Of a DNA stretch of 64,000 nt, positions 748 to 27,919 are shown one piece after another (position 1 is the stretch's first letter; each line of letters starts with the position of its first letter). The translations under genes and the position numbers were made by a program. This DNA comes from a virus, in IMG/VR virus record IMGVR_UViG_3300029343_000516, one strand, 5' to 3'. The notes below the pieces were generated by a model that had not been told where the DNA came from, searched no databases, and saw only the letters and a list, made by a program, of their open reading frames with translations.

Positions 748-1320
748 TTATTCTCCGCTCTTAATGATTTCTTTTAATGTTCTTGGTGTATAGTTTATAT
801 AACTTTTCATACATCCGACATTCCACATATTACATGGCTTATCATATAAAGCTGTCATCTGATATTTTACCTGCTGCATCATATTATCTTCGAAACCTGT
901 ATGTACATGACCGTAGAGATGATAGCTTCCGTAATAATGATTCTTAAAGCATGGAATTGGATAATGACATAAAACTATAATCTTACCATCACCAATATCG
1001 AGTTCCTTGTAATCAGCGATCTCACAAAATCTACTCTGTAATTCTCTGTTCTTTAACAACTTACCATCATGATTACCCTTGATTAGATGTATATTCCCAT
1101 TCAGATTGTTAAAAATTTCAATAGTTTTTGTTGCGTTGTACCACGAAATATCTCCAAGCAGGTATACATCATCATCAATTTCTACTGTATTATTCCAATT
1201 TTTAATAATCGTCTCGTCATTCTCTTCAATTGATTTAAAAGGTCTATTGTCAAATGCCATGCAGTTTTTATGTCCAAAATGTAAATCTGATATAAAATAA
1301 TTCATATAATTATTCTCCAA
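748..1320 (-). CDS. calcineurin-like metallophosphoesterase (possible RNA 3'-phosphatase / cyclic phosphodiesterase)
   Basis: Metallophosphatase motifs DLHFGH, GDISWY, GNHD and GHVH in the canonical order. Overlaps the RNA ligase gene by 11 nt, so the two are co-translated. Confidence 0.8.
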   Translation of the reverse strand: MENNYMNYFISDLHFGHKNCMAFDNRPFKSIEENDETIIKNWNNTVEIDDDVYLLGDISWYNATKTIEIFNNLNGNIHLIKGNHDGKLLKNRELQSRFCEIADYKELDIGDGKIIVLCHYPIPCFKNHYYGSYHLYGHVHTGFEDNMMQQVKYQMTALYDKPCNMWNVGCMKSYINYTPRTLKEIIKSGE

Positions 1321-2236
1321 AAATAATCTTCTTAGCCCAATTCATAGTTGTAGAACCACACATCTTGCCAAAGAATTCACCAGCTTCAACAACTAATTCA
1401 TTCTCTTCTTTTACACAATCCTCAAAAATTCTCTTAGGTAAATTCTGTGCAACAATTCTCATGTCTTGTGGCTCAATCTTTTGAGGTAAAATACCTTCAT
1501 CAATCATCTTGTATAATTCTTTTTGGACACGATTTTTTGTAACAATCTGCTCCACAATCTCAGAAGCCTTTGCTTTAGCTGCTAATTTCTGTGGATCTTC
1601 AACTTTCTGTCTATGGTTGTCCTTCTTGATTTCGCTAAACTGTGAATTTACAATCTTTAATACAAATGGAGTCCTTGAGTTTGGATTGTTAAGTTCTGTT
1701 TGATTCTTAACAACAATTCCTTCAGGAATATCTACCGCAATATCTGACTTGTGCATAAACGACATACAATGTTCCCATGAGATAAATTCTCCATCATAAA
1801 ATGTCTGTACATATCTCAAATTTAATTCGTCAGCAAGTCTCTTAACCTCTGATTGAGGTAAATAACATTCATTCTCTTTGTCATATACATCGTAAAAATA
1901 TGATTTACCATAGGCTTCTGGAATATATTTAATAGTATGCTTTGTAAGCCACTCCATGAAAAATACATAATTTGGATATTTTGAAAATGGTTCAACTGCC
2001 AATGTCTGCACCCAATTCCAAAATCCATTTAATGTATTGTTATAATCAAGAGTCTGCCTTCTCGAAAATGCAACTAACTTATTTGTTTCTTTATCATAAG
2101 CAATAGCTGAATTGCTTCCATCTACCTTTTCCTGAATTACAATATGATCTCCTACATGGAAACCACCTGTATTCGCTACTGTTAATTCCGTATCTTCTTT
2201 GATACGTGATATATCCATAAATTTCTTTTGTTCCAT
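1310..2236 (-). CDS. ATP-dependent RNA ligase-like nucleotidyltransferase (Rnl family)
   Basis: Motif I EKVDGSN (lysine adenylylation site, KxDGxN) near the N-terminus. Size 308 aa. Adjacent to a phosphoesterase, as in RNA repair cassettes. RNA rather than DNA ligase is an inference from the motif variant. Confidence 0.6.
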   Translation of the reverse strand: MEQKKFMDISRIKEDTELTVANTGGFHVGDHIVIQEKVDGSNSAIAYDKETNKLVAFSRRQTLDYNNTLNGFWNWVQTLAVEPFSKYPNYVFFMEWLTKHTIKYIPEAYGKSYFYDVYDKENECYLPQSEVKRLADELNLRYVQTFYDGEFISWEHCMSFMHKSDIAVDIPEGIVVKNQTELNNPNSRTPFVLKIVNSQFSEIKKDNHRQKVEDPQKLAAKAKASEIVEQIVTKNRVQKELYKMIDEGILPQKIEPQDMRIVAQNLPKRIFEDCVKEENELVVEAGEFFGKMCGSTTMNWAKKIIFGE

Positions 2237-9916: not shown

Positions 9917-10654
9917 TTACGCCTGATACACAAAACTTGGCATTGGCTGTAATTTAAACAGATTTTTCTCATGCATTGAATCAATCTTAGCTTTTACTTC
10001 CTCACTTGGCTCAATTCCATCTCTGATATATGCATCTAATTCAGCATAAGTAAATCCAAGGTTATCTTCATCAGTCTTTCCACAAAGACCATCGGTAGGT
10101 GTCTTATCAACTAATTCTGACGGAAGCCCTAACTCACGACCGATAGCTTTAACCTCTGTTACTGTAAGATTTTCTAGTGGACTAAAATCACCAGCAGCAT
10201 CGCCAAACTTGCTACAATATCCAACCCAATTTTCTGAAAGATTACACGTATTAGCGACACGACCATTTACTGTCTGTGATACTGCATAAAGTGTAGCCAT
10301 ACGAATACGAGCAGGAAGATTTGTTATTGTCTGAATTGATAACTCTTCATCTAATGATGTTTTAATTTCATATTCAGTAACATTCACAATTGTTCCGACT
10401 GGAATAATAGTACGTGGAATGTCTAAAAAACTGCAAAGTTTACGACTATATTCAATATCTCTTTGTCTTCCCTGTGGCATCATCACACCAAAAACTCTAT
10501 CCTTGCCAAGAGCTTCACAACATAAGCCAGCAACAACGCTTGAATCCTTACCGCCAGAAATTCCAACTACTGCCATACAATCTTTACCATTCTGTTCAAA
10601 CCAATCTCTAATCCACTCTACGATTTCATTCTTTACTTTCTTAGCATCAAACAT
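9917..10654 (-). CDS. nadE: NH3-dependent NAD+ synthetase
   Basis: PP-loop SGGKDSS. KFGDAAGDFSPL and PTDGL...EDNLGFTYAELDAY align with E. coli NadE (KYGDGGTDINPL; PTADLEDD...LGVTYDNIDDYLEG). 245 aa. Confidence 0.85.
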   Translation of the reverse strand: MFDAKKVKNEIVEWIRDWFEQNGKDCMAVVGISGGKDSSVVAGLCCEALGKDRVFGVMMPQGRQRDIEYSRKLCSFLDIPRTIIPVGTIVNVTEYEIKTSLDEELSIQTITNLPARIRMATLYAVSQTVNGRVANTCNLSENWVGYCSKFGDAAGDFSPLENLTVTEVKAIGRELGLPSELVDKTPTDGLCGKTDEDNLGFTYAELDAYIRDGIEPSEEVKAKIDSMHEKNLFKLQPMPSFVYQA

Positions 10655-10670
10655 TTATATATTCTCCTTT

Positions 10671-11297
10671 CTACATTCGATTCATCACATCATAGAACCG
10701 AATTAAATACTCATATACATTTCTAGGAACTAATTCTTTTACCTTTTCAAATTCACCCTTTTCACATAAATCTCTAACCAAACTTGAAGAAGTATGATTT
10801 TTTGGTATCTGAATTTCTGTGAAGTGATCTTTATATTCCATAAGATTTGCTTCTCTTAAAGCAGTCTCAAGATTCTGACCTTCTCTCACACATGCTACAA
10901 AATTATATTCCTCAACAAACGGTTTCCAATTATACCAAGTTGTAAGTGGTTCAATATTATCCATTCCTAAACAAATATAGTATTCGTTGAAGATATAATC
11001 TTTTTCATTTATATCTCTTATCTGAGTAATAGTATTGTATGTCCTCTGTGGAAAGAAGCTGGTTGTTTCAACTTCGGATGCCCACATATTATTTTCCTCA
11101 CAATTTGGCATTGAATTAATCAGCGATACTCGACAATATCCAGGTATCAAAGTCTTTTTCTTCGCAACATATGTATCATGTGCAGGAATAAACAATATAG
11201 CATCAGCATTAACCGCTTTTTTAGCAGTCAATGCCATATCAACATGGGCGTTGGTAATTGGATTAAAACTTCCTGGTATAAGTAAAATTTTATTCAT
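10671..11297 (-). CDS. nadD: nicotinate/nicotinamide mononucleotide adenylyltransferase
   Basis: N-terminal LLIPGSFNPITNAH is the (H/T)xGH nucleotidyltransferase motif of NadD/NMNAT. 208 aa, flanked by nadE and pncB. Confidence 0.8.
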   Translation of the reverse strand: MNKILLIPGSFNPITNAHVDMALTAKKAVNADAILFIPAHDTYVAKKKTLIPGYCRVSLINSMPNCEENNMWASEVETTSFFPQRTYNTITQIRDINEKDYIFNEYYICLGMDNIEPLTTWYNWKPFVEEYNFVACVREGQNLETALREANLMEYKDHFTEIQIPKNHTSSSLVRDLCEKGEFEKVKELVPRNVYEYLIRFYDVMNRM

Positions 11298-12498
11298 GAT
11301 TCATTCTCCAATTAATACATCTCTTTAGATAATCAACATAATCAGGGTTTTTACACATACCTTTACCTTCTACATCAGACACTTTTGCAACATCCATACC
11401 GTTACATTTAGTGGTTTTCATTACAATATTTAAAACAGGAACATCTGTGTCATTACTCAAATAAGTACCAATTCCAAATGCAACGTTTACTCTATCATGG
11501 AAGTGTCTGAATAACTTATCAGCTCTTTCAAAATCAAGACTGTCACTAAACAGAAGTGTCTTTGTCTTAGGATTGATACCAAGTGACTCATAATGATTAA
11601 TCATCTTTTCACCCCATTCAATCGGATCTCCACTATCATGTCTTACACCACTGAATAATGTTGCATATGTCAACTGAAAATCTTTCAAGAAACAATCAGT
11701 TGTAATTGTGTCTGTGAGAGCAATACCATTTAACACACCATACTCTCTAACCCATGCGTCTAAGGCATACCAGTTTGAATATGCTGGATTGTGCTTGTGA
11801 TTTCCCTGACCAGAACACATAATCCATTCATGAGCCATAGTTCCAACAGGCGTGAGATTATATTTCTTTGCGAGATATACATTAGATGTACCAACAAATT
11901 TAGATGGACTGTGTAATGTATCATTCAAATGTGAAAACTTCTCAACAGCTAACTCCTGTGCTTCAGCAGAAAGTCTTCTTCTAAGACCAAATTCAGAAAA
12001 TGTACCAGCGTACCAATGACCGCTTCTGAGATTTTCATACTTTTCATCTAATCTCTTTTTGAAACTATTAAGCAATTCCTCATAGTTATATGCCATTCTA
12101 AAATATACTTCGTTCACAATCGCAAGTGTAGGAATCTCATACATAGATGTATTAAGCCATGTACCAAATGTTTCGATAGAAAGACCGCAATCTGAATCTG
12201 TTGTAATCTCAAAATCCTCATATCTGGGCTGCCATAATCTTAAAAAATCAACATACGAGCCCTTTATCCATTTGATATTGTCAAGGTAAGTAAGTTCATC
12301 TTCTGTGAATCTCAAACCACAATATAATTTAATCTGTCTGCGAATCTCTTCTACCATTTCTTGTGTAAAGTGAACATCCTTATTACGACATTTAAAACTC
12401 CAAGTGGTTTTATAATCACTAAACTGATGATAAATAGCCTGTCCCATACTTAATTTGTACATATCGGTTTCTAATAAACTTGTAATAATCTGCTCCAT
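11290..12498 (-). CDS. pncB: nicotinate phosphoribosyltransferase
   Basis: LLETDMYKLSMGQAIYHQF matches E. coli PncB LLDTDAYKLHMQQAVFHHY, and the roughly 400 aa length fits. I placed the start at the internal Met (MEQIITSLL), which has SD GAAGGAAA. The longer listed ORF start would read through the upstream gene. Confidence 0.8.
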   Translation of the reverse strand: MEQIITSLLETDMYKLSMGQAIYHQFSDYKTTWSFKCRNKDVHFTQEMVEEIRRQIKLYCGLRFTEDELTYLDNIKWIKGSYVDFLRLWQPRYEDFEITTDSDCGLSIETFGTWLNTSMYEIPTLAIVNEVYFRMAYNYEELLNSFKKRLDEKYENLRSGHWYAGTFSEFGLRRRLSAEAQELAVEKFSHLNDTLHSPSKFVGTSNVYLAKKYNLTPVGTMAHEWIMCSGQGNHKHNPAYSNWYALDAWVREYGVLNGIALTDTITTDCFLKDFQLTYATLFSGVRHDSGDPIEWGEKMINHYESLGINPKTKTLLFSDSLDFERADKLFRHFHDRVNVAFGIGTYLSNDTDVPVLNIVMKTTKCNGMDVAKVSDVEGKGMCKNPDYVDYLKRCINWRMNHE

Positions 12499-12499
12499 A

Positions 12500-13054
12500 T
12501 TAATTTCCTTCTTTCTTGATTTGATTAAATATTGTTCTAATATCATATTCTCTGTTTTCGTACTCATAAAACAGATTAATATACTTATCAATAAAAGCCA
12601 TGTCATTTGGATGCATTGCAATTGGTTTACTTTTCTTAGATTCCCACCATTTTAATTCCTTCTCAAAATTAAATGATTTACCATGATATGCTCTACCTGC
12701 TCCAAGATAATCACAAAGCATTTCTTTTTTATACTTCATTGGCATTTCAATAGGATTTCCACCATTATCAAAATTGTCCTGCCAATATTCGTAATGGTGC
12801 TTGTTTCTTCCTTTATGGTGCATCCAAGCTGCTGACCAACCATTCTCTTTCTTGCAAGCATCTATTGGACTTGAAGTACCTTGATAATACTTAACACTCT
12901 CCCAAAATTCCGTTGGAGAAAATTTAGATAAATCATGTACTAACCCTTGAAATGGAATTCCCACTTTACAGCAATAGTAGAACACCCAATGTTTATGCGT
13001 ACAGACTTTCTTAAAATGTCTGAAAGTATTAATGATATAATTCTTATACTTCAT
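12500..13054 (-). CDS. HD-domain metal-dependent phosphohydrolase-like protein
   Basis: H...HD pattern (THKHW ... GLVHDLSKF ... HHKGRNKHH). Start placed at MKYKNY, which has SD GGAGAG. Embedded between pncB and a radical SAM gene. Confidence 0.5.
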   Translation of the reverse strand: MKYKNYIINTFRHFKKVCTHKHWVFYYCCKVGIPFQGLVHDLSKFSPTEFWESVKYYQGTSSPIDACKKENGWSAAWMHHKGRNKHHYEYWQDNFDNGGNPIEMPMKYKKEMLCDYLGAGRAYHGKSFNFEKELKWWESKKSKPIAMHPNDMAFIDKYINLFYEYENREYDIRTIFNQIKKEGN

Positions 13055-13688
13055 TATTCTCTCCAATCTTTCTATACTCCGTATATACTTTGTTTTCACA
13101 GTAATACAAGTTATAATCACACTGTTCAATGTACCACCATAACTTCTGATGTCCTTCTTTAAGATATTCTCTACAATAATCTGTTTCCTGATAGTGATTA
13201 TCTACCATCTGTCTGAAACTCAACTCATCAATAATACCTGAGTTATGACAATATACTGCTATTCTGTTAATTAAATCCTCTGTGAAATTTTCCGTGACCA
13301 CAAATACAACTCTGACAATTTCGTTTTTTAATCGCTTGATGGATTTTAATTGTTTAAAATCATGTAAATGGTATACAACTCTGTCAAAATATGCATATGG
13401 TGCATCTTTTACATTTGGCATACTTGTATGTAGCTCTATCTGAACTCTATGTAAAGTTATATCGAAGAATTTCCTATACCACTCTACATTATTTTCTAAA
13501 TTCCATAATGGATCTCCACCACCAGATATTGATACCCAATTACACTGATTTTTCTTAATCTCCTCTTCCAAAGAGTTCAATCCATCAATCGTACTCTTTG
13601 GAATCTGAAGGTTATTATTCTTTACAATGCAATATGGACATGAATAGTGGCATCCAAAATTGGTTATCACACTCATGTACTTATCCAT
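13044..13688 (-). CDS. radical SAM protein (small, NrdG/PflA/QueE-like activase fold)
   Basis: N-terminal CxxxCxxC cluster (FGCHYSCPYC) and ISGGGDPL (the GGEPL-like SAM motif). 214 aa. Confidence 0.7.
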   Translation of the reverse strand: MDKYMSVITNFGCHYSCPYCIVKNNNLQIPKSTIDGLNSLEEEIKKNQCNWVSISGGGDPLWNLENNVEWYRKFFDITLHRVQIELHTSMPNVKDAPYAYFDRVVYHLHDFKQLKSIKRLKNEIVRVVFVVTENFTEDLINRIAVYCHNSGIIDELSFRQMVDNHYQETDYCREYLKEGHQKLWWYIEQCDYNLYYCENKVYTEYRKIGENNEV

Positions 13689-13691
13689 ATT

Positions 13692-14201
13692 CTACTCTCC
13701 AATCACTTCAATCTGACAACTTTTCATAACTTCCATAGCCGCTTTATGTTTATCAGGTGTGACTCCTGCACAGCAACTTGCATCTACTGTGACATTAATA
13801 AATGGATAATCAGCTTTAATAATTAAAGCATTTGATACTACACAAATTTCGCTACAAAGACCAATAAGTTCTATATCATTGTTAAATCCAAAGTCAGTCC
13901 AATGTGTCCAACCAAAAGATTCCTTATTGATATATGCACAATTTGGAACTTCTAATCCGTCTGCAATCTGCCATCCATGAGTATTGTAAATACAATGTTC
14001 AACTGGTAACTTGATACCTTCTGGTGTACTTAAATAGTTTTCATAATGTGTATCTCTTGTGAAAATAATTCTATCTCCACGATTATAATATTCTTCAATT
14101 TTCTTCTTGACATTTGGAACAATTGCCTGTGCTTCCTTTGTACCGAGTGAGCCATCAATAAAATCATTCTGCATATCAATTACAATTAATGTTTTGCTCA
14201 T
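13692..14201 (-). CDS. pncA: nicotinamidase (isochorismatase-family cysteine hydrolase)
   Basis: LIVIDMQNDF signature (catalytic Asp) plus the conserved Lys and Cys (LCSEICV) of the isochorismatase/PncA family. 169 aa. Confidence 0.75.
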   Translation of the reverse strand: MSKTLIVIDMQNDFIDGSLGTKEAQAIVPNVKKKIEEYYNRGDRIIFTRDTHYENYLSTPEGIKLPVEHCIYNTHGWQIADGLEVPNCAYINKESFGWTHWTDFGFNNDIELIGLCSEICVVSNALIIKADYPFINVTVDASCCAGVTPDKHKAAMEVMKSCQIEVIGE

Positions 14202-14693: not shown

Positions 14694-16202
14694 TTAATCC
14701 ACTTGTGGCTGATGAAAATTTACCATCTTCTCATCTGTACAAATATATGTATTGTCATACTGAGCCTTATATAAATGCTCAATCAACAAAGAGATGCAAG
14801 TTGTCACTATACTGTTACCGCTTTGTTTATATCCCTGAGTATCAGACATTCCAACTGCTTTACAGTTCTCATAATCAATATCATCGAATCCCATGAGCCT
14901 GTGGCACTCTTTTGGCGTGAGCTTCCTCACAACTCTTAAATTGTCTCTTTCAACTTTTGGTTCTGTATTACCGCCACCACAAGTATGCATAGCTGGTGCA
15001 ATTCCATCTTCGCTATATACTCTGCGAGACTGTTCATGCATTCTCTGAAACTTTTCGCTGCATAAATCAGCAATATGTATTGGTTCGTTTGAGTCGGCAA
15101 GAATCTGTTTTGGCTGTTTATAATCGGTTGCCACTAAAGTACCCATTACTGAATCCTGCTGATAAACTAAATCTCTGTTACCTAATCTGGTACAATTTTG
15201 TCCAATTGTTGTTCCTACTACATTCTTTTCAAATTTTGGATCTGTTATCTGAAGTCTTTTCTGTACTTCATCAGATAAGAAATATTTCTCCAGAACACTG
15301 CTATCTGTTTCTAATAAATCCTTTAATCTGATTCCTGTATCAAAAGGCTGTGGAAATTCAAAAGACTTGGTATCAATATCCTTACGAATAGAGATACAGA
15401 AGATTCTATTTCGATTCTGTGGAATACCTGTATTCTTTGCATTGATTGTCTGATAATATGAGTTATATCCCAAGTTATCAAGCCGAATCAGCCAATCCTT
15501 AAAACTGTCAATATACTTCTTTGATACAAGAGCATCTACATTCTCCATAAGCAAATACTTTGGTAATGTATTATTCTCTTTTGCTTTTACAAGAAGTCTC
15601 TCAACTTCATACAATAAACCTGAACGAGTTGATTTAATGTTGTGGTTGCCACAATTAGGGCATGTATAACGAGTATCTACGTCTAATTCAGATGGATCAT
15701 ATTCACAACCACAATCATGACATGTCCACTTTAATCCTTCCTGCTTACCGGCGATTGACAAATCTGTACATGGAGTCGAGTATGTAAGTAAATCACTATA
15801 TGGCAGTGACTCAATCTGCATCATATCGCCAAGATTATGTGAAATATGGTCTGCTAACCAATATTTCTCAATACCTTTTGCCTTGTTCTTCTTTCGTGAA
15901 AGCTTCTCCCAATCATACGGAACATCTTTCTTAAAATCATATCCAAGTCTCTTATCTGTAAGCTGTTTTACCATTTCTTCTTTACTTGGATAATCTTCAT
16001 AATTTTCAATCATCTCATTAGTTAATCCACAATGAATTGCAGCATAACTAACTACTACTTCTTTGTCTAAATCTGCTGTTGCAATCATATTTGCATTGAA
16101 GAGATGAGTATTATCAATTCCCTTCATCTGCGCACCAATACCACTGCAAAGCTCAATTACACTTAACTCACAATAATTATTTTTTTCTTTATTCTCTGTC
16201 AA
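14694..16202 (-). CDS. dcm: DNA (cytosine-5)-methyltransferase
   Basis: Motif I LCSGIGA (FxGxG), motif IV TPCTDLS (PC), motif VI LMENV, RKLTPKECHRLMGF and motif X GNSIV. An inserted zinc ribbon (CHDCGC ... CPNCG). Only TTG is available as a start, at 16200-16202. Confidence 0.85.
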   Translation of the reverse strand: MTENKEKNNYCELSVIELCSGIGAQMKGIDNTHLFNANMIATADLDKEVVVSYAAIHCGLTNEMIENYEDYPSKEEMVKQLTDKRLGYDFKKDVPYDWEKLSRKKNKAKGIEKYWLADHISHNLGDMMQIESLPYSDLLTYSTPCTDLSIAGKQEGLKWTCHDCGCEYDPSELDVDTRYTCPNCGNHNIKSTRSGLLYEVERLLVKAKENNTLPKYLLMENVDALVSKKYIDSFKDWLIRLDNLGYNSYYQTINAKNTGIPQNRNRIFCISIRKDIDTKSFEFPQPFDTGIRLKDLLETDSSVLEKYFLSDEVQKRLQITDPKFEKNVVGTTIGQNCTRLGNRDLVYQQDSVMGTLVATDYKQPKQILADSNEPIHIADLCSEKFQRMHEQSRRVYSEDGIAPAMHTCGGGNTEPKVERDNLRVVRKLTPKECHRLMGFDDIDYENCKAVGMSDTQGYKQSGNSIVTTCISLLIEHLYKAQYDNTYICTDEKMVNFHQPQVD

Positions 16203-16799: not shown

Positions 16800-17096
16800 T
16801 CAGCCTTTGAATAGAATCTCTATTTGAAATTTCTTTAATTCATCTTGAATCATCTTCTGTATATCTTCTTTGTCAAAAGATATATTTGCAACTGGAATAA
16901 TATTTGCATTTTGATTAACATCGCCAACAAGAGCATTATCAAATGCCTCTAAAAACATTTCTGCAATTTCTTTTTCATAGTTGCCACACATTCCATCGTA
17001 GTTAATATCTGCAATTACTCTCGAAAAGAAATCTTTGAACTTATCAGCGATAAAATCTTTCTCATACCCTATTGGAATATCAATTGTTAATTTCAT
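16800..17096 (-). CDS. hypothetical protein (98 aa)
   Basis: ORF in the array. Confidence 0.45.
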   Translation of the reverse strand: MKLTIDIPIGYEKDFIADKFKDFFSRVIADINYDGMCGNYEKEIAEMFLEAFDNALVGDVNQNANIIPVANISFDKEDIQKMIQDELKKFQIEILFKG

Positions 17097-17110
17097 TCTT
17101 TTATCTCACC

Positions 17111-17545
17111 TTACTTCCCAAATGGATTCTCCATAATACAATGGTCAACCATATCTTTAAATGCAAAAGGTGAATCAATCACTCTATTTGAATATCTGAA
17201 ACGCTTTAAAAACTCAAGTACCTCATGTGCATCTCTATGTGATAATGGAATAAATGATACATACTCTGGATGACCTTTAATGCATACAACCGCCCAAGAA
17301 TGGTCATCAGAACAAAAACCAACATCCGTTCCAACATCTACCATCGAGTTCATCATCTTGTGACAATCATCAACCAATTTATAAGAATCTTCATATGCAA
17401 TAGTTGCATCAGACAACCGTATATTGGCATATTCGCATCTTCTTCTTGCGTTATTGTATGATTTTTTAGCTGCTTCCACTTGAAATAAATCATCTTCTAA
17501 TAACCAATGTCTCAATTTATCTCGTATTTTATCCTTTAATTTCAC
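17111..17545 (-). CDS. hypothetical protein (144 aa)
   Basis: ORF in the array. Confidence 0.45.
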   Translation of the reverse strand: MKLKDKIRDKLRHWLLEDDLFQVEAAKKSYNNARRRCEYANIRLSDATIAYEDSYKLVDDCHKMMNSMVDVGTDVGFCSDDHSWAVVCIKGHPEYVSFIPLSHRDAHEVLEFLKRFRYSNRVIDSPFAFKDMVDHCIMENPFGK

Positions 17546-17551
17546 ACTCTC

Positions 17552-17995
17552 TCACCTCTTACATACCAAAATCTCAACATCTGTATCCGCAAAAATGTTT
17601 TTAATCTGTTCAGAGACATCATTCCAGTTCAATCTATCTAAGCCACAACCAATTACAGGCATTGCAATCTTCTTGATATTATTCTCCAAACAAATCTGTT
17701 TCATCTTTTCAAGTGCAAGTCTCATTGTAATTGTTGTTGGTTTGTGAAAATATCTCTCTTTTGTAATAAGATTTAATACCCTATCTTCTAATAGACAATC
17801 ACCACCAATCCTCTTATGAGTATACCGGTCAAAATAATATGGATATTTTGTCAGCAACCTTCTCTTCATATCAAACCTTTTATTGAACTCAACTACAATT
17901 CCTTTACCCATTCCAAAATCTGCACTGATACAATGTGCTAAATAATAATCTTCTGGTACTGTAAACAAGTCTTTATTTTCTTCTCTATATTTCAC
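17552..17995 (-). CDS. macro domain protein, Poa1p/TARG1(OARD1)-type ADP-ribose-1''-phosphate phosphatase / ADP-ribosyl hydrolase
   Basis: [19 protein letters not shown] and [21 protein letters not shown] align closely with human OARD1/TARG1 ([40 protein letters not shown]). 147 aa. Confidence 0.8.
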   Translation of the reverse strand: [147 protein letters not shown]

Positions 17996-18216
17996 TATTT
18001 CACCTCGCTTACCACTTTTATCTTACATTCGATTTCTACAACTTCTAGCTGCCTATCAGCGTTATAACGTCTTGACTTGAATCTTCTAACCGCATTCTCA
18101 GCAGTTTTTCTTGTTTCCCAATATTTGTGTCGTGGGTTTGTAAGATTACTTAGTAATTTTCCTGTTAATTTATCCATTACACCATATAATGTAAATTCAT
18201 TTTCCATCTCTTTCAC
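17995..18216 (-). CDS. hypothetical protein (73 aa)
   Basis: ORF in the array. Confidence 0.4.
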   Translation of the reverse strand: MKEMENEFTLYGVMDKLTGKLLSNLTNPRHKYWETRKTAENAVRRFKSRRYNADRQLEVVEIECKIKVVSEVK

Positions 18217-18221
18217 CTCAC

Positions 18222-18422
18222 TTATTCTCTATATGGTTCAGGACATTTCTGCCACGCAACCACATCTACGGTGCTACCACTTGGTAAAACATCCCATATC
18301 CAATTTCCCTTTGGATATTCATATCTATCAGTTTGTCTTACCTGTCTCCCAAAAGATGTTTCTATTGTTACCAAATACCTTCCTTTTTTCTGTGGTGGAT
18401 TTTTAGTTCCCCATTTTGCCAT
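18222..18422 (-). CDS. hypothetical protein (66 aa)
   Basis: ORF in the array. Confidence 0.4.
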   Translation of the reverse strand: MAKWGTKNPPQKKGRYLVTIETSFGRQVRQTDRYEYPKGNWIWDVLPSGSTVDVVAWQKCPEPYRE

Positions 18423-18432
18423 TTATTTCACC

Positions 18433-19173
18433 TCACATCCATTTATCAATCTCGCTAAACACATTGCCTAGCGAATCAACAATCGTCAGATCCGTATCTT
18501 CATTCATTAACACTTGAATTTTTTCCCTATTGATAATAACCAAATGCCTACCACTGAAATACGAAATATAATTCGCTGCTGGATAAACTTTTAATGAAGT
18601 GCCACCAATAATCAACATTTCAGCATCTCGAATGGCTCTGATTGCCCTATTTACCGCATCATTAGGAAGATTTTCTCCATATAAAGTTACGTCAGGTCTA
18701 ATCAGACCACCACATTCACACTTTGGGATAGCTTCTTTAGTGTTAAACAAGAAATCTGAATGATATTCCATTTTACATTTACTACAATAATTCCTCTGAG
18801 TAGTTCCATGAATTTCAAATACATTCTTACTGCCAGCTTTTTGATGAAGCCCATCAATGTTCTGTGTAACAATAGCCTTCAACTTACCTATTTCTTCCAT
18901 CTTAGCAAGTACCTTATGAGTAATATTTGGCTCAATATTTCTTGTATCCATCTTCTGACGATAGAACTCATAGAATACCTTTGGATTGTTATATAAGCAT
19001 TCTCGACTCAAAAGATACTCTGGCTCGTATCTATCAAACTGAACGTCATGCTGATTATATAACCCATCCTTAGAACGAAAGTCTGGAATACCACTTTCAG
19101 TAGATACACCTGCTCCACCAAAGAATACAATATTATTTGATTCTTCTATATATTCTCTTAATTTTTCGTACAT
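18433..19173 (-). CDS. cobB: NAD-dependent protein deacylase, Sir2/CobB sirtuin family
   Basis: GAGVSTESGIPDFR, TQNIDGLH, HG, a Zn-binding Cys4 (CSKC ... CECGG) and GTSLKVYPAA are all canonical sirtuin motifs. 246 aa. Confidence 0.85.
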   Translation of the reverse strand: MYEKLREYIEESNNIVFFGGAGVSTESGIPDFRSKDGLYNQHDVQFDRYEPEYLLSRECLYNNPKVFYEFYRQKMDTRNIEPNITHKVLAKMEEIGKLKAIVTQNIDGLHQKAGSKNVFEIHGTTQRNYCSKCKMEYHSDFLFNTKEAIPKCECGGLIRPDVTLYGENLPNDAVNRAIRAIRDAEMLIIGGTSLKVYPAANYISYFSGRHLVIINREKIQVLMNEDTDLTIVDSLGNVFSEIDKWM

Positions 19174-19183
19174 AGTTCTTACC

Positions 19184-19435
19184 TCACTCTATCATTTCAA
19201 CTTTAATTCTAAATTTTGTTGTTTCTATATGTTCGCTTTCTTGATAAGGACGATTATAATCAAAGTGCTGATGTTTAACAGTCGCAATCAAGTGAGCATC
19301 ATTGCCAGAAACAAATTTCGTATCTGTCTCATAAGTATCTTCTGAACCATCACCAAGTTTAGAGTCTGTACAATATATCTGATTTGCGTCTAATGCATCT
19401 TGAATAATTCTGTAAATTTCTCCTGTATTATACAT
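19184..19435 (-). CDS. hypothetical protein (83 aa)
   Basis: ORF in the array. Confidence 0.4.
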   Translation of the reverse strand: MYNTGEIYRIIQDALDANQIYCTDSKLGDGSEDTYETDTKFVSGNDAHLIATVKHQHFDYNRPYQESEHIETTKFRIKVEMIE

Positions 19436-19445
19436 AGCTACTCCT

Positions 19446-20834
19446 TTAATACTCTATCCAACCATCTGTAATACCAGTCATCCAATAAATAAGATCTTCT
19501 CTATCATTTTTTAATCTTCCATCTATTACACGAGTTAAGATTTCATTGAGCCAGTATCCAACTTCTTTTCCACTTTTAATGAGCATTGTATCCATTACAT
19601 CTTTTCCATTAACTGCTAAATCCTTTAGAGAAAAACATTCATCGTCCTGTAAAACTTCTTCCAAAATATATCCGATATTGTCAATCTTCTGTAATCTTGT
19701 TTCCTGATTAATGTCTGCTTGTGCTTTAATATCAGCTCTACGAACATTTAATAACCTTCTGAACTGTTCTTCTCCAATTTTATTAAGCCATCTCTTGACA
19801 TATTTCTTCCCCATCTCAAAAGTTGTATCATGATAATAAACAAGCTGCACTACTTTTTCTCTTGTATCATTATCAAAACGAAGTCTTTTCATAATTGTAT
19901 CAGTCATATCAGCACTGACTCTTCCATGACCTTTAAAATGTCTAATACCATCTTCTCCATCCTGATAACAATGTGGTTTTCCTATGTCATGAAAGAACAC
20001 CGCTAATGATGTAATTAAATCTATTGAATTTAAGTCGGGTTCACAATCACATTCATAAGCTTGTACTGCATGTACTGTATGATTCCATACATCATAAATG
20101 TGATATGGATTATTCTGTTGAAAGCCAAGCATATCTTTAATTTCAGGAATGAACAACGAGAATACTTCACGGAATAATCCTATCTGTATATAAAACTCGC
20201 TTGATAATGCAATCTTACAGAACTCACTGTTGATTCTCTCAATAGATATATTCTCTAAATTCTTATACATTTTATGAATATTAAAACTCACATCAGAATC
20301 AACCACAAATCCCAGTTGTGAAGCAAACCGAATAGCACGTAAAATTCTTAAAGCATCTTCCGAAAATCTATCCTCTGCTCTACCAACACATCTGATTTTA
20401 TAATGCTCAATATCTTCCATACCATTAAACGGATTTACAAGACCAACTTCATCATTGTATGCCATCGCATTGATTGTAAAATCTCTACGCTTCAAATCTT
20501 CTTTAAGACTTCGTGTAAATGTTACGCTATCAGGTCTACGACTATCTGAGTAATTACCGTCAATTCTGTAAGTGGTGCATTCATATCCTTCACCGTCAAT
20601 TACAATGGTAATAGTTCCATGTTGTAAACCAGTTTCAATAATTCTCTTGTCCTTGAATACTTCCATCATTTCATCTGGTGTGGCAGAAGTTGTAATGTCG
20701 TAATCGTGAATTGGTCTGCCAAGAATACTATCTCTCACTGCACCACCACATAAAAATGCCTCATATCCATTATTCTGTAAAGTATGAATAATTTCATTTG
20801 CACCAGATGGAATTTCAATTTTCAATTTCTTCAT
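19446..20834 (-). CDS. cca: tRNA nucleotidyltransferase (CCA-adding enzyme) with HD domain
   Basis: Class II nucleotidyltransferase head CGGAVRDSILGRPIHDYDI (GGxVRD...DxD), HD motif FFHDIGKP. 462 aa. Confidence 0.8.
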   Translation of the reverse strand: MKKLKIEIPSGANEIIHTLQNNGYEAFLCGGAVRDSILGRPIHDYDITTSATPDEMMEVFKDKRIIETGLQHGTITIVIDGEGYECTTYRIDGNYSDSRRPDSVTFTRSLKEDLKRRDFTINAMAYNDEVGLVNPFNGMEDIEHYKIRCVGRAEDRFSEDALRILRAIRFASQLGFVVDSDVSFNIHKMYKNLENISIERINSEFCKIALSSEFYIQIGLFREVFSLFIPEIKDMLGFQQNNPYHIYDVWNHTVHAVQAYECDCEPDLNSIDLITSLAVFFHDIGKPHCYQDGEDGIRHFKGHGRVSADMTDTIMKRLRFDNDTREKVVQLVYYHDTTFEMGKKYVKRWLNKIGEEQFRRLLNVRRADIKAQADINQETRLQKIDNIGYILEEVLQDDECFSLKDLAVNGKDVMDTMLIKSGKEVGYWLNEILTRVIDGRLKNDREDLIYWMTGITDGWIEY

Positions 20835-20871
20835 TCAAATTCACCTCAATTTTTGGTATATTTATAAAATA

Positions 20872-21426
20872 TCACTTATTCGTTATCATATCCAAAAACA
20901 ACAAATCATCTTTCTTCAATGTGATATCATAACCTTTCCATTCTTCCATTAGCCCTCTTATATCAAATTTATGCGGAACAATAATTGCATAGCCGTGAGG
21001 AGTCTTATGTACCTCTATCTCTAATAATGGAATTTCCGAATACATAGCTATCTCATGGACAAAATCATTCATCAATAACTCATCATCCACATCAAAATCA
21101 AATAACCACTTGCCATCATCTCTGTTCTGCACTTGCAGTGCAACTGAAGCCAATGTGTGATTGAGACGTGTCATACTCAGTTTATCTCTCAGTAGTCGGA
21201 TAATAAATTCTTCTCTGATTTTATCTTCATTCCTTGAATTGACCGACCTGTATAATCTTGTCTGTTCACCAGGAACTCCTTTGGCTGCAAAACTCTTAAA
21301 TTCTTCAATTATTTTGTCTTCATTCTCTTTATATTCAAGGATTGTTTCAATTCGCCCCTTGAAGTTTGGAACATCTTTATTATCCTTGTTACGAGAACGA
21401 ATTAAATATACATATAAATTTGACAT
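20872..21426 (-). CDS. hypothetical protein (about 184 aa) immediately downstream of tpt1
   Basis: ORF starting MSNLYVYLIRSRN. Its SD GGAGAATAA coincides with the Tpt1 stop. One HxTx-like motif (HKTP), otherwise unassigned. Confidence 0.45.
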   Translation of the reverse strand: MSNLYVYLIRSRNKDNKDVPNFKGRIETILEYKENEDKIIEEFKSFAAKGVPGEQTRLYRSVNSRNEDKIREEFIIRLLRDKLSMTRLNHTLASVALQVQNRDDGKWLFDFDVDDELLMNDFVHEIAMYSEIPLLEIEVHKTPHGYAIIVPHKFDIRGLMEEWKGYDITLKKDDLLFLDMITNK

Positions 21427-21431
21427 TGTAT

Positions 21432-21974
21432 TTATTCTCCTTCTAAATAACAGATTGGTACTTCTTTTGTAAGCCATACACCATTTTGAGATAAAAAGAA
21501 TTTATATCCGTCATTATACATATCTTTTGCTCGAACCTTATAAATAAACGGTTCTCCATGTCTACTGCCAACATTTGTTGCTGTTTCAATATCTTTTGAT
21601 AGATGAACATATAAACGGCTCTTAGAGATTAATCCTTGTTTGTTGATTGAAGAACAATATTTGACACCTGTTCCATGATATAAAATATCTGGTGGCATAC
21701 ACTCTTTTAATTCTACATCAACTTTTATAGAATGACCTTGATTTGCTCTTATAAGCGTCTTTTCTCGATTAAATGAATATCTCTGTTTAGAATCTTCTTC
21801 TACAATTTTCTCAAGCATTTTCATTGTAATCGTCTGAGTTTTATTGATTCCTTTTAATAGATCTGACACGTTAGCCCAACCATGTTTGTCTAATGTGATA
21901 CCGATAACATCAGGTCTGTGTCTAAGAATTAATGCTATGTATTTGCTTAAATTATTTTGCTCTTTATTCGTCAT
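21432..21974 (-). CDS. kptA: RNA 2'-phosphotransferase Tpt1/KptA (NAD+-dependent)
   Basis: LSKYIALILRHRPDVIGITLDKHGWANVSDLL, IRANQGHS, LYHGT, YVHLS and NGVWLT align along the full length with E. coli KptA. Start placed at the internal ATG (MTNKEQ), which has a GGAGA SD. The listed longer ORF begins at TTG. Confidence 0.85.
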   Translation of the reverse strand: MTNKEQNNLSKYIALILRHRPDVIGITLDKHGWANVSDLLKGINKTQTITMKMLEKIVEEDSKQRYSFNREKTLIRANQGHSIKVDVELKECMPPDILYHGTGVKYCSSINKQGLISKSRLYVHLSKDIETATNVGSRHGEPFIYKVRAKDMYNDGYKFFLSQNGVWLTKEVPICYLEGE

Positions 21975-21978
21975 AATG

Positions 21979-22215
21979 TTATCTCCATTCTCCAATATAC
22001 TCAGAACATTCTTTTTTGAATTTTTCCAATATATGTATTAAGCTATCTATTTCATAAGAATCCTTAAATGTTATTTCAATTATTTCAGGCTTAGATATAT
22101 CAATATTGTCAGTAGTGTAGGGCAATGGTTTCATAAAGCAATCAAATCTGACGTTCAACCCTTTATGTGTCAATCTTATTTGATTGACATTTTCTTTATT
22201 TCCAACAACCTTCAA
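21979..22215 (-). CDS. hypothetical protein (78 aa), TTG start with strong SD
   Basis: ORF with SD GGAGGTGA 9 nt before TTG. First gene after palindrome copy C. Confidence 0.4.
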   Translation of the reverse strand: MKVVGNKENVNQIRLTHKGLNVRFDCFMKPLPYTTDNIDISKPEIIEITFKDSYEIDSLIHILEKFKKECSEYIGEWR

Positions 22216-22273
22216 ATAGATTTCACCTCCAAAATTCCATAAGAAATGTGCGTTTCTTTCTAATGCAAAATAT

Positions 22274-22321
22274 ATACCACATATAGTATATATTGCTTAT
22301 TTTTAATACTATATATGGTAT
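22274..22321 (-). terminator. intrinsic terminator / conserved palindromic element, copy C
   Basis: ATACCACATATAGTAT-N16-ATACTATATATGGTAT (15 of 16 bp dyad), 12 nt after the stop of the 22333 gene. Followed on the minus strand by AUAUAUUUUGC. Confidence 0.55.
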
Positions 22322-22332
22322 ATCCATAACAA

Positions 22333-22722
22333 TTATTCACTTAATTCTGCAAGTGCCTTATCCAGATCCTCATCAGACATATTTTCAAGTGCCGCATCCT
22401 GTCTCTTAGCTTTGATTTCAAGCAATCTCTGTCTCATCTCAGCATTTTTCTTAGCATCTTCTCTCTTCTTTTTCTCATCCAGCTTCACGCTAACAATATA
22501 CTTAACAATTTCAATCTTGTTAGAAATCTCCTCGTCTTCCTTTGACTTAGTATTCAGAAGACTCTCTTCCTCAGACTTCTTTACTTCCGCATTGAGTGTC
22601 TTGAATACTGAGTCCAGATTTGTGAGAGATAAATCCCACAAATCAATTACATTAATCATTCCTCTGAATGGGAACTGATAGTTTGCTCTTGTTGCATTAA
22701 TAAATAATTCGTTGTTTGTCAT
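22333..22722 (-). CDS. hypothetical coiled-coil protein (129 aa)
   Basis: ORF; Lys/Glu-rich heptad-like sequence. Confidence 0.45.
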   Translation of the reverse strand: MTNNELFINATRANYQFPFRGMINVIDLWDLSLTNLDSVFKTLNAEVKKSEEESLLNTKSKEDEEISNKIEIVKYIVSVKLDEKKKREDAKKNAEMRQRLLEIKAKRQDAALENMSDEDLDKALAELSE

Positions 22723-22740
22723 AATAATCTCCTTTTCTAA

Positions 22741-24798: not shown

Positions 24799-24899
24799 GT
24801 TTTGTACCTCTTCTTTCTTATATTTATTTTTGTTAATTGTTTCTACTATTATATTCTCCGTTTTATAAATTAAAAGGTCTGTTTTATTACCCTTTGAAT

Positions 24900-26619: not shown

Positions 26620-26634
26620 TCCATTCTCTCCTTA

Positions 26635-27902: not shown

Positions 27903-27919
27903 TTTGTTTCCTCCTTAAA

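What the first reader, a model, noticed from the sequence alone, without database searches (positions are those of the whole stretch)
17552..21974. Eukaryote-like tRNA 2'-phosphate removal pathway: Tpt1/KptA plus Poa1p/TARG1-type macro domain, with CCA-adding enzyme and sirtuin
Tpt1 (full-length alignment to KptA) uses NAD+ to remove a 2'-phosphate from RNA and produces ADP-ribose-1'',2''-cyclic phosphate. A macro domain of the Poa1p/OARD1 family lies 3.4 kb away in the same gene array; its [15 protein letters not shown] and [12 protein letters not shown] blocks are nearly identical to human TARG1. This is the family that hydrolyses the downstream ADP-ribose-1''-phosphate. Tpt1 normally partners with Trl1-type ligation, which leaves a 2'-PO4 junction, so the element appears to carry a splicing/repair-type RNA healing pathway. 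This is plausibly counter-defence against tRNA-cleaving immune nucleases (PrrC-, RloC-, PARIS/AriB-, retron- and VapC-like). The whole NAD-producing module 7 kb upstream may exist to feed it.
Basis: partly seen in the sequence, partly recalled or inferred. Interest (0 to 1): 0.8.

Follow-up and report, generated by a model that had tools for sequence, protein, structure and literature searches.

The report
Phage NAD/ADP-ribose and tRNA-repair gene island
A large uncultured gut phage carries an intact RNA 2'-phosphotransferase (Tpt1), a human-TARG1-like macro domain, a sirtuin, a CCA-adding enzyme and a full NAD salvage set in one tight gene array, but sister phages show that these are independently swapped accessory genes, so this is a new example of an already proposed phage NAD-dependent RNA-repair and counter-defence toolkit, not a dedicated Tpt1-macro pathway.

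Summary
All named genes are present at the stated coordinates, on the minus strand, packed with gaps of 37 nt or less. Tpt1 matches PF01885 at 1e-46 and keeps the R-H-R-R tetrad. The macro domain matches human TARG1 at 1e-26 and keeps the catalytic Lys and Asp. Sir2 and an HD-containing CCA-adding enzyme lie between them. PncA, NAPRT, NadD and NadE lie 3.4-7.6 kb further along.

- The macro is TARG1/OARD1-type with DarG next. Yeast Poa1p is not hit even at E<=10.
- No Trl1-type ligase or 2H cyclic phosphodiesterase was found in about 75 ORFs scanned.
- Only 2 of 30 related Tpt1-bearing phage contigs also carry this macro. Only 1 of 73 macro-anchored loci has Tpt1 within 10 kb.

The region is a mosaic hotspot. 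An RNA-repair role for Tpt1 is well supported. A 61%-identical homologue in a Phascolarctobacterium genome bin lies in a WYL-Tpt1-Thg1-kinase/phosphoesterase/ligase operon, and Bacillus phage G embeds KptA in the same NAD salvage cluster. The macro more likely acts separately, as an ADP-ribose eraser.

The Tpt1/2H/Macro repair idea was published in 2021-2022. Verdict: new member of a known kind, modest interest.

The parts
21432..21974 (-). Tpt1/KptA RNA 2'-phosphotransferase (ATG start; the mechanical ORF begins at TTG 21995)
   Evidence: PF01885 1e-46. phrog_5470 2.8e-77. 7kw8 1.6e-45 with the R-H-R-R motifs aligned.
20872..21426 (-). unk201: conserved phage protein of unknown function. It is the fixed backbone gene between two cargo slots.
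   Evidence: phrog_8839. 904 homologues, of which the 120 listed carry no functional name, and 389 representatives at 50% identity. Invariant K14 D15 N16 E54 R57 Y59, with near-invariant D110 and D112. AF2 pLDDT 97.4. No significant solved-structure match. Homologues sit beside replication genes in Streptococcus prophages.
19446..20834 (-). Class II CCA-adding enzyme with HD domain
   Evidence: PolyA_pol 3.4e-36, tRNA_NucTran2_2 4.9e-12, HD 3.9e-06. phrog_2244. Present in 20 of 25 Tpt1-anchored loci.
19184..19435 (-). Small ORF (83 aa), unknown function, variable cargo
   Evidence: No Pfam or PHROG hit. Present in few relatives.
18433..19173 (-). Sir2-family NAD-dependent deacylase with a Zn-ribbon (CxxC...CxC) and catalytic His (FEIHGT)
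   Evidence: PF02146 1.5e-56. Sir2Tm 1yc5 1.1e-45. Present in only 3 of 25 Tpt1-anchored loci and 1 of 60 macro-anchored loci.
17995..18422 (-). Two small ORFs (66 and 73 aa), unknown function, variable cargo
   Evidence: No family hits. Sporadic in relatives.
17552..17995 (-). Stand-alone TARG1/OARD1-type macro domain (ADP-ribosyl hydrolase)
   Evidence: 4j5r 9.9e-27, DarG macros 7.3e-05 and 0.009, no Poa1p hit at E<=10. Pfam Macro 22.0 bits, right at the cut-off. The 120 best of 2532 homologues are nearly all stand-alone, about 147 aa.
9917..14201 (-). Nicotinamide-to-NAD salvage set: PncA 13692-14201, NAPRT 11290-12621, NadD-like 10671-11297, NadE 9917-10654. A radical-SAM-like gene and a DUF5662 gene are interleaved.
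   Evidence: Isochorismatase 2.8e-23, NAPRTase 1.5e-66, CTP_transf_like 1.2e-14, NAD_synthase 7.5e-51. Bacillus phage G has the same four enzymes together with KptA.
748..2236 (-). RNA ligase (1310-2236, KVDGSN motif) plus metallophosphoesterase (748-1320): a candidate seal-and-heal pair
   Evidence: PF09414 5.4e-22 and Metallophos 1.1e-06. phrog_548 and phrog_547.

Best explanation
The interval is part of a recombination hotspot in a family of roughly 80-245 kb gut phages. The hotspot collects, one gene at a time, accessory enzymes that use NAD, process ADP-ribose or mend tRNA ends. The genes probably work as separate modules that share one metabolite pool, not as a single evolved pathway.

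Tpt1 module (activity and repair sequence inferred):
1. A host ribotoxin cuts tRNA and leaves a 2',3'-cyclic phosphate.
2. A phosphoesterase opens the cyclic phosphate to a 2'-phosphate. Candidates are the HD domain of the CCA enzyme or a metallophosphoesterase.
3. [quoted passage not shown]
4. The CCA-adding enzyme rebuilds the 3' end, or the ligase seals the break.
5. PncA, NAPRT, NadD and NadE turn the released nicotinamide back into NAD.

Macro module (inferred): the TARG1-type macro is a separately acquired ADP-ribose eraser. The most likely job is removing ADP-ribose that host transferases such as DarT2 place on phage nucleic acid or protein. Clearing O-acetyl-ADP-ribose from the neighbouring sirtuin, or other small ADP-ribose esters, comes second.

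Shown here: gene identities, intact active-site motifs, tight co-directional packing, and the modular inheritance pattern. Inferred: all substrates and the order of steps.
For: - Identity and motifs.
- Modular inheritance across 104 IMG/VR loci.
- Immediate neighbours: Tpt1 is followed by unk201 in 27 of 30 loci. unk201 is followed by the macro in 26 loci or by CCA in 25.
- Within 10 kb: the TARG1-like macro occurs in 1 of 25 Tpt1-anchored loci of 15 kb or more. Tpt1 occurs in 1 of 60 macro-anchored loci of that size.
- Other cargo in the hotspot fits the same theme: RlaP RNA-repair nucleotidyltransferase, DHH-like phosphoesterase, metallophosphoesterase, NADAR, and a NARP1-like Prs/Nampt pair with a Poa1p-like macro.
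- Tpt1 and RNA repair: the Phascolarctobacterium operon WYL/WCX-Tpt1-Thg1-kinase/Metallophos/RNA_lig_T4_1, and a metallophosphoesterase 0.8 kb from Tpt1 in the 65%-identical phage locus L029.
- Metallophosphoesterases can open 2',3'-cyclic phosphates to 2'-NMP (PMC2190708).
- Tpt1 and NAD salvage: the phage G cluster.
- Macro as an eraser: TARG1 and DarG share the catalytic Lys, and TARG1 reverses DarT, Tpt1-type 5'-phosphate ADP-ribosylation and O-acetyl-ADP-ribose (PMC8883491).
- A phage macro, AdfM, defeats DarTG2 (PMC13309987).
- Close homologues are solo genes among small early genes in other large phages.
Against: - No biochemistry was done, so every substrate is inferred.
- The related loci are mostly one species-level group (Tpt1 96-100% identical). 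The counts are therefore not independent events.
- Sampling was anchored on each gene and limited to 10 kb either side, or to contigs found by peptide seeds.
- The closest solved relative, Runella Tpt1, is poor at removing terminal 2'/3' phosphates (PMC6573784). This weakens the CCA-end version of the repair route.
- No polynucleotide kinase or 2H enzyme was found in the window.
- The window's ligase is PF09414, a type not known to need or leave a 2'-phosphate.
- Seven NAD/ADP-ribose genes within 12 kb, and the phage G parallel, show thematic linkage. Some metabolic coupling between Tpt1 and the macro is therefore not excluded.
- It is unknown whether the host range of this phage includes DarT2 systems.
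Confidence: 0.55

Rival explanations
1. Tpt1 and the macro are two steps of one pathway. Tpt1 removes a junction 2'-phosphate left by Trl1-style ligation. The macro then dephosphorylates the ADP-ribose-1''-phosphate derived from its by-product.
For: - Both genes sit in one tightly packed co-directional array.
- The macro belongs to the broad Poa1p-like/ALC1-like class.
- The same scheme has been proposed for jumbo phages (PMC7824862, PMC9503650).
- Both genes also occur in Bacillus phage G and Klebsiella phage FBKp24.
- Cellular relatives of this Tpt1 sit beside an RNA_lig_T4_1 ligase.
Against: - Only 2 of 30 Tpt1-bearing contigs also carry the macro, and 1 of 73 macro-anchored loci has Tpt1 within 10 kb.
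- Poa1p is not hit at E<=10, whereas TARG1 scores 1e-26.
- No 2H cyclic phosphodiesterase and no PF09511 ligase were found in about 75 window ORFs.
- The Poa1p-like macro of this phage family is another gene (c47), located in NARP1-like operons.
- In phage G the two genes are 145 kb apart.
Confidence: 0.15
2. A sirtuin-macro pair. Sir2 deacylates a host or phage protein and makes O-acetyl-ADP-ribose. [quoted passage not shown] PncA recycles the nicotinamide, which would otherwise inhibit the sirtuin.
For: - Sir2 ends 440 bp before the macro starts, much closer than Tpt1.
- The sirtuin is a canonical Zn-containing deacylase type.
- TARG1 hydrolyses O-acetyl-ADP-ribose (PMC8883491).
- Sir2 and the macro are directly adjacent in L068.
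Against: - Sir2 is present in only 1 of 60 macro-anchored loci and 3 of 25 Tpt1-anchored loci.
- The macro therefore almost always occurs without this sirtuin.
Confidence: 0.1
3. The macro is an ADP-ribose-1''-phosphate phosphatase used against RES-type NAD phosphorylase defences, like Adpp in NARP1-AP. It does not serve Tpt1.
For: - Phage Poa1p-like macros dephosphorylate ADPR-1P and defeat aRES (bioRxiv 10.64898/2026.01.28.702374).
- The island is centred on NAD.
- In sister phages the macro is often followed by a metallophosphoesterase, 28 loci.
Against: - The window lacks the Adps/Namat pair that would use the ADP-ribose.
- Its salvage route starts from nicotinamide.
- This macro is TARG1-like, not Poa1p-like.
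- The Adpp-like candidate in this family is c47.
Confidence: 0.1
4. A writer-eraser pair. Tpt1 caps 5'-phosphate ends of RNA or DNA with ADP-ribose, and the TARG1-like macro removes the cap.
For: - Tpt1/KptA enzymes ADP-ribosylate 5'-phosphate ends in vitro, and TARG1 reverses this (PMC8883491, PMC12678800 abstract).
Against: - The same lack of co-inheritance applies.
- No in vivo role for such caps is known in bacteria or phages.
- The nearest cellular homologues sit in RNA repair operons.
Confidence: 0.07

Closest known systems
Phage KptA/Tpt1-based NAD-dependent RNA repair, as proposed by Iyer, Burroughs, Anantharaman and Aravind (PMC7824862, 2021; PMC9503650, 2022)
   Same: - A phage-encoded KptA, with Macro, CCA-adding enzyme, RlaP, calcineurin-like phosphoesterase, RNA ligase and NAD salvage genes in one genome.
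- The same proposed logic: clean up the 2'-phosphate, then process the ADP-ribose cyclic phosphate.
   Different: - No 2H or cREC domain was found here.
- NAD salvage runs through PncA, NAPRT, NadD and NadE, not NadV/NadM/NadR.
- The host is an uncultured gut Firmicutes-type organism.
- Here the comparative data show that the macro is not co-inherited with KptA.
Bacillus phage G gp273-gp283 cluster
   Same: KptA sits with isochorismatase (PncA), nicotinate phosphoribosyltransferase, nicotinate-nucleotide adenylyltransferase and NAD synthetase. Phage G also has a 48%-identical TARG1-like macro, gp437.
   Different: - In phage G, KptA lies inside the NAD cluster and the macro is 145 kb away.
- In the window, Tpt1 is 7-11 kb from the NAD genes and the macro is 3.4 kb from Tpt1.
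Bacterial WYL-regulated RNA repair operon with Tpt1, Thg1 and a kinase-metallophosphoesterase-ligase protein (Phascolarctobacterium genome bin, L117); compare Clostridium thermocellum Pnkp and the Runella slithyformis repair cluster
   Same: Tpt1 is 61% identical. A metallophosphoesterase does the end healing and an ATP-dependent ligase does the sealing.
   Different: - The phage has separate ligase (PF09414, not PF09511) and phosphoesterase genes about 19 kb from Tpt1.
- No kinase or Thg1 was found in the window.
- The phage carries a CCA-adding enzyme instead.
Human TARG1/OARD1, and the DarG and phage AdfM macrodomains
   Same: About 43% identity to TARG1, the same length, and the catalytic Lys (ITK) and Asp (GLDRL) retained. 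DarG macros are the next best solved relatives.
   Different: - It is a stand-alone phage protein with no DarT-binding domain.
- Its substrate is untested.
- AdfM was described as closest to DarG2, whereas this protein is far closer to TARG1.
Yeast tRNA splicing clean-up (Trl1, Tpt1, Cpd1, Poa1p)
   Same: A Tpt1 with the full catalytic tetrad, and a macro domain of the same broad class as Poa1p.
   Different: - No Trl1-type ligase and no 2H cyclic phosphodiesterase were found.
- The macro is not detectably similar to Poa1p by sequence.

Membership tests
Tpt1/KptA RNA 2'-phosphotransferase (PF01885) | Full-length match to the family profile above the curated cut-off | tested here: met
   159.7 bits against a cut-off of 26, covering profile positions 2-176 of 177.
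Tpt1/KptA RNA 2'-phosphotransferase (PF01885) | Catalytic Arg-His-Arg-Arg tetrad | tested here: met
   R25, H26, R83 and R127 in ORF numbering (R18, H19, R76, R120 from the ATG) align with RslTpt1 R16, H17, R64 and R119 (PMC6097658).
Tpt1/KptA RNA 2'-phosphotransferase (PF01885) | NAD-dependent removal of RNA 2'-phosphate; complementation of yeast tpt1 deletion | not testable with these tools
   Needs an enzyme assay or yeast genetics.
TARG1/OARD1-type macro domain | Closest characterised relative is TARG1, over the whole domain | tested here: met
   4j5r 9.9e-27 over residues 8-144. The next hit is DarG at 7.3e-05.
TARG1/OARD1-type macro domain | Catalytic Lys84 and Asp125 equivalents | tested here: met
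   LITKERY aligns with LITKKRA, and GCGLDRL is identical. The residue roles are from Sharifi et al. 2013, as cited in PMC8883491. The TARG1 numbering is from my own knowledge.
Poa1p-type ADP-ribose-1''-phosphate phosphatase | Detectable sequence relationship to yeast Poa1p (6lft) | tested here: not met
   6lft is absent from the PDB hits even at E<=10. The sister-phage macro c47 does hit it, at 0.006.
Poa1p-type ADP-ribose-1''-phosphate phosphatase | Phosphatase activity on ADP-ribose-1''-phosphate | not testable with these tools
   Needs an enzyme assay.
MacroD/YmdB deacetylase clade | Best matches to MacroD-type macro domains | tested here: not met
   None of the 11 PDB hits at E<=10 carries a MacroD or YmdB name. 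The only generically named one (7omu, 'Macro domain-containing protein') scores E=0.34. Pfam Macro reaches 22.0 bits, right at the cut-off, over the C-terminal 38 residues only.
Fungal-type tRNA ligation and clean-up pathway (Trl1, Tpt1, 2H CPDase, Poa1p) | Trl1/Rnl1-type ligase (PF09511) that leaves a 2'-phosphate junction | tested here: not met
   The only ligase found in the window is PF09414. No PF09511 hit in about 75 ORFs scanned. The rest of the phage genome was not seen.
Fungal-type tRNA ligation and clean-up pathway (Trl1, Tpt1, 2H CPDase, Poa1p) | 2H cyclic phosphodiesterase that converts Appr>p to Appr-1''-p | tested here: not met
DarG/AdfM-type anti-DarT macrodomain | Macro domain of the DarG/TARG1 class with the catalytic Lys | tested here: met
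   DarG macros 5m3i 7.3e-05 and 5m31 0.009. The Lys is retained.
DarG/AdfM-type anti-DarT macrodomain | Removal of ADP-ribose from DarT-modified DNA; protection against DarTG | not testable with these tools
   Needs an assay or infection experiments.
NARP1-AP (Adps-Adpp-Namat) | Macro gene inside or next to a Prs-like Adps and Nampt-like Namat operon | tested here: not met
   No Prs-like or Nampt-like gene in the window. Sister phages have such an operon, but with a different macro, c47.
Sirtuin deacylase (PF02146) | Profile match, catalytic His and Zn-binding Cys pairs | tested here: met
   191.6 bits. FEIHGT and CSKC...CEC are visible in the translation. Sir2Tm 1.1e-45.

The most novel reading that the evidence does not exclude
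The locus is a swap site for alternative NAD-centred counter-defence cassettes. The window's PncA-NAPRT-NadD-NadE set would be a fourth phage NAD reconstitution route that has not been described experimentally. It would rebuild NAD from nicotinamide through the deamidated (Preiss-Handler) path. It would serve against host NADases and also recycle the nicotinamide released by the phage's own Tpt1 and Sir2. Sister phages carry a NARP1-AP-like Prs/Nampt/macro(/NADAR) cassette at the same position.
Probability: 0.4. Interest if true: 0.55.

Novelty: new member of a known kind. Interest (0 to 1): 0.33.

Why it matters
- No phage Tpt1 has been tested experimentally, and the natural substrate of bacterial Tpt1/KptA is a long-standing open question.
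- This abundant gut-phage family offers natural variants: with Tpt1, with the macro, with both, or with neither. These could be used to test which host defences each gene answers.
- The comparative result is a caution. Gene neighbours in a phage hotspot that share a biochemical theme need not form a pathway.
- The alternation of two different NAD-rebuilding cassettes at one locus adds to the picture of NAD as a central battleground between phages and bacteria.

Tried and rejected
- **No named relative.** Megablast of 17000-24800 against GenBank phages found nothing.
- **AFDB fold library** was unavailable.
- **Kinase, 2H, RtcB or Rnl1-type ligase in the window:** none found.
- **Host identification** from genome contigs gave only metagenome bins: Bacilli, Acetatifactor and Phascolarctobacterium.
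- **Contexts of Tpt1 in Clostridioides phage phiCD211 and Erwinia phage Ea35-70** were uninformative.
- **A sirtuin acting like KptA in RNA repair** (PMC9503650) was considered. This sirtuin is a canonical deacylase type and is rarely present in relatives.

Full report
**1. What is there**

The window is AT-rich (about 32% GC). Nearly every gene lies on the minus strand. The interval 17552-21995 contains, in order of transcription:
- Tpt1 (21432-21974)
- a 184-aa protein of unknown function, here called unk201 (20872-21426)
- a CCA-adding enzyme with an HD domain (19446-20834)
- an 83-aa ORF
- a Sir2 deacylase (18433-19173)
- two small ORFs
- a 147-aa macro domain (17552-17995)

Pfam, PHROG and PDB searches confirm each assignment. 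Gaps between consecutive genes from orf78 to orf124 are 37 nt or less. No minus-strand terminator-like site was found. Co-transcription is therefore likely.

Further along the same strand lie a Dcm methylase and the four enzymes that convert nicotinamide to NAD: PncA, NAPRT, NadD-like and NadE, at 9917-14201. At 748-2236 there is an RNA ligase (PF09414) next to a metallophosphoesterase.

**2.

Both tests were passed.
- The Tpt1 Arg-His-Arg-Arg tetrad is intact. LRHRP, IRANQGHS and SRLYVHLS align with the motifs holding R16, H17, R64 and R119 of Runella Tpt1. Mutating those residues abolishes its function (PMC6097658).
- The macro domain is not a MacroD/YmdB type. Its best solved relative is human TARG1/OARD1 at 1e-26, with the catalytic Lys and Asp positions kept.

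However, 'Poa1p/TARG1-type' merges two families. After TARG1 come the DarG antitoxin macros at 7e-5 and 0.009. Yeast Poa1p (6lft) is not hit even at E<=10.

**3. Comparative genomics**

The phage has no close relative in GenBank. IMG/VR holds many relatives, mostly 80-245 kb contigs whose sample ids resemble human-gut metagenome sets. I clustered all plus-strand ORFs of 104 related loci and compared gene orders.

The stretch between a conserved 129-aa gene and the NAD genes is highly mosaic. unk201 is the fixed point.
- The slot upstream of unk201 holds Tpt1 (28 loci) or unrelated small genes (clusters c79, c50, c115).
- The slot downstream of unk201 holds the macro (26), the CCA enzyme (25) or Sir2 (2).

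Among 25 Tpt1-anchored loci of at least 15 kb:
- 20 have the CCA enzyme
- 17 have a DHH-like phosphoesterase
- 3 have Sir2
- 1 has the TARG1-like macro

Among 60 macro-anchored loci of at least 15 kb:
- 30 have unk201
- 24 have a metallophosphoesterase (directly downstream of the macro in 28 of the 73 macro-anchored loci)
- 12 have an RlaP nucleotidyltransferase
- 1 has Tpt1
- 1 has Sir2

By contig name, 2 of 30 Tpt1-bearing contigs appear in the list of 74 macro-bearing contigs.

In GenBank phages, Tpt1 occurs in 98 records and this macro type in 15. They coincide in Bacillus phage G, where they are 145 kb apart. They also coincide in Klebsiella phage FBKp24, where they are 9 kb apart. Close macro homologues are stand-alone genes among small early genes in other large phages.

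Tpt1 and the macro are therefore not inherited as a unit.

Caveats:
- The relatives are closely related, so the counts are not independent events.
- Sampling was anchored on each gene.
- A divergent macro elsewhere in a genome could be missed.

**4. What supports RNA repair for Tpt1**

- A 61%-identical Tpt1 in a Phascolarctobacterium genome bin lies between WYL/WCX regulators and two repair genes. These are a Thg1-like enzyme and a single protein combining a P-loop kinase, a metallophosphoesterase and an RNA_lig_T4_1 ligase. That is a complete heal-and-seal operon.
- In a 65%-identical phage locus (L029), a metallophosphoesterase lies 0.8 kb downstream of Tpt1.
- Metallophosphoesterases of this kind can open 2',3'-cyclic phosphates to 2'-phosphates (PMC2190708). 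That would create a Tpt1 substrate. This step is inference.
- The hotspot's other cargo (CCA enzyme, RlaP, DHH-like and metallophosphoesterases) fits a tRNA-end repair theme.
- Some Tpt1 enzymes also remove terminal 2'/3' phosphates. Runella Tpt1, the closest solved relative, does not (PMC6573784). Whether the phage enzyme prepares 3' ends for CCA addition is open.

**5. NAD supply**

Bacillus phage G places its KptA between nicotinate phosphoribosyltransferase and nicotinate-nucleotide adenylyltransferase. An isochorismatase, an NAD synthetase and a Nudix hydrolase lie nearby. The association of Tpt1 with this four-enzyme route therefore recurs in an unrelated phage.

In many sister phages the NAPRT and NadD genes are replaced by three others:
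- a Prs-like gene
- a Nampt-like gene
- a second, Poa1p-like macro (cluster c47), sometimes followed by a NADAR gene

This is shown. The arrangement resembles NARP1 with its associated ADPR-1P phosphatase, which defeats RES-domain NAD phosphorylases (bioRxiv 10.64898/2026.01.28.702374). The window contains none of these genes.

Within this phage family, the macro with the best claim to process ADP-ribose-1''-phosphate is therefore a different gene, and the window lacks it.

**6. What the TARG1-like macro probably does**

TARG1 has four known activities (PMC8883491):
- It hydrolyses O-acetyl-ADP-ribose.
- It removes ADP-ribose from acidic protein residues.
- It removes ADP-ribose from phosphate ends of DNA and RNA.
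- It removes ADP-ribose from DarT-modified thymidine.

A phage macrodomain, AdfM, has been shown to defeat DarTG2 (PMC13309987). This gene occurs alone, varies in presence between sister phages, and keeps the catalytic Lys. I therefore rank a separate eraser role first.

The sirtuin 440 bp away gives a reasonable local source of O-acetyl-ADP-ribose. However, that sirtuin is absent from almost all macro-bearing relatives.

**7. unk201**

- The family has 389 representatives at 50% identity, with invariant K-D-N and E..R.Y motifs and a near-invariant DxD motif.
- The AF2 model is very confident, pLDDT 97.4.
- No solved structure matches it significantly.
- Homologues sit beside replication genes in Streptococcus prophages and in Lactococcus 949-type phages.

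I treat it as a backbone gene of unknown function, not as part of the pathway.

**8. Missing parts of the proposed pathway**

About 75 ORFs of the window were scanned against Pfam. None of the following was found:
- a 2H cyclic phosphodiesterase
- a polynucleotide kinase
- RtcB
- an Rnl1/Trl1-type ligase

The rest of the genome, probably about 100 kb or more, was not available.

**9. Novelty**

Phage kptA genes are annotated in GenBank and form PHROG 5470. The scheme is already published in PMC7824862 and PMC9503650. In it, KptA removes the 2'-phosphate and 2H and Macro domains process the ADP-ribose cyclic phosphate. Those papers also cover CCA-adding enzymes, RlaP, calcineurin-like phosphoesterases and phage NAD salvage.

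The window is a new member of this known kind, from an uncultured gut phage. The points not found in the papers searched are:
- the modular, non-coupled inheritance of Tpt1 and the macro
- the use of the deamidated nicotinamide route
- the alternation of that route with a NARP1-AP-like cassette at one locus

**10. Verdict**

- Observation: confirmed.
- Interpretation: partly supported. RNA repair and the NAD link hold up. The dedicated Tpt1-macro pathway and the 'eukaryote-like' label do not.
- Interest: about 0.33.

Noticed in passing
window 9917-14201 (-); sister loci L005, L008, L012, L047: The window has a complete nicotinamide-to-NAD route (PncA, NAPRT, NadD-like, NadE), with a radical-SAM-like gene and a DUF5662 gene interleaved. 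In sister phages NAPRT and NadD are replaced by Prs-like, Nampt-like, Poa1p-like macro and sometimes NADAR genes, which resembles NARP1-AP. The papers found on NARP1, NARP2 and NARP3 do not mention the deamidated route.
   Followed up: partly
window 20872-21426 (-): unk201 is a widespread phage protein family (389 representatives at 50% identity). It has invariant KDN, E..R.Y and DxD motifs and a pLDDT 97 model, but no significant match to any solved structure. It is the fixed anchor between two cargo slots.
   Followed up: partly
L117 971-6986 (Phascolarctobacterium genome-bin contig NZ_CAAGLX010000019.1): Bacterial operon: WYL and WCX regulators, Tpt1, a Thg1-like enzyme, and one protein combining a kinase, a metallophosphoesterase and an RNA_lig_T4_1 ligase. 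This is a Trl1-like repair set that uses a metallophosphoesterase in place of a 2H domain.
   Followed up: partly
window 748-2236 (-), and 94-741 (-): An RNA ligase (PF09414, KVDGSN motif) is translationally coupled to a metallophosphoesterase (aq_1665-like). The next gene (215 aa, Cys-rich) has no family hit. No polynucleotide kinase was seen.
   Followed up: partly
window 37746-38108 (-), 37099-37172 (-), 38666-39694 (-): A MazF/PemK-like endoribonuclease toxin gene (7.7e-20) lies next to a tRNA-Gln(UUG) gene and a tyrosine integrase. A second tRNA-Gln(UUG) gene is at 31556-31630.
   Followed up: no
window 25036-29270 (-): An unusual transporter-like block for a phage. It comprises a 527-aa protein with an NMT1-type substrate-binding domain plus an OmpA C-terminal domain, a PspA-like protein, an ABC ATPase and a BPD_transp_1 permease.
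   Followed up: no
window 22741-24798 (-): A 685-aa protein matches phrog_1735 at 892 bits with no known function. It is conserved at 80-97% identity in most sister loci that extend over it (20 of 25 Tpt1-anchored, 38 of 60 macro-anchored) and sits immediately upstream of the hotspot.
   Followed up: no
window 4597-5139, 5892-6626, 14694-16202 (-): Three DNA methyltransferase genes: an EcoRI-methylase-like fragment, a D12-class Dam-like gene, and a C5 Dcm-like gene with an inserted Zn-ribbon. The Dcm slot is itself variable among sister phages.
   Followed up: no
window 34200-35648 (-), 31674-32267 (-), 56931-57713 (-): A weak GmrSD_N-like (DUF262) 482-aa protein, an SPFH/Band 7 protein and a DUF5688 protein. 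Their functions in the phage are unknown.
   Followed up: no
sister loci, e.g. L033 10448-11221, L014 12527-13450, L089 17747-18775: Recurrent hotspot cargo absent from the window. A 257-aa metallophosphoesterase directly follows the macro in 28 loci. A DHH/DHHA1-like phosphoesterase follows the CCA enzyme. There is also an RlaP RNA-repair nucleotidyltransferase.
   Followed up: partly
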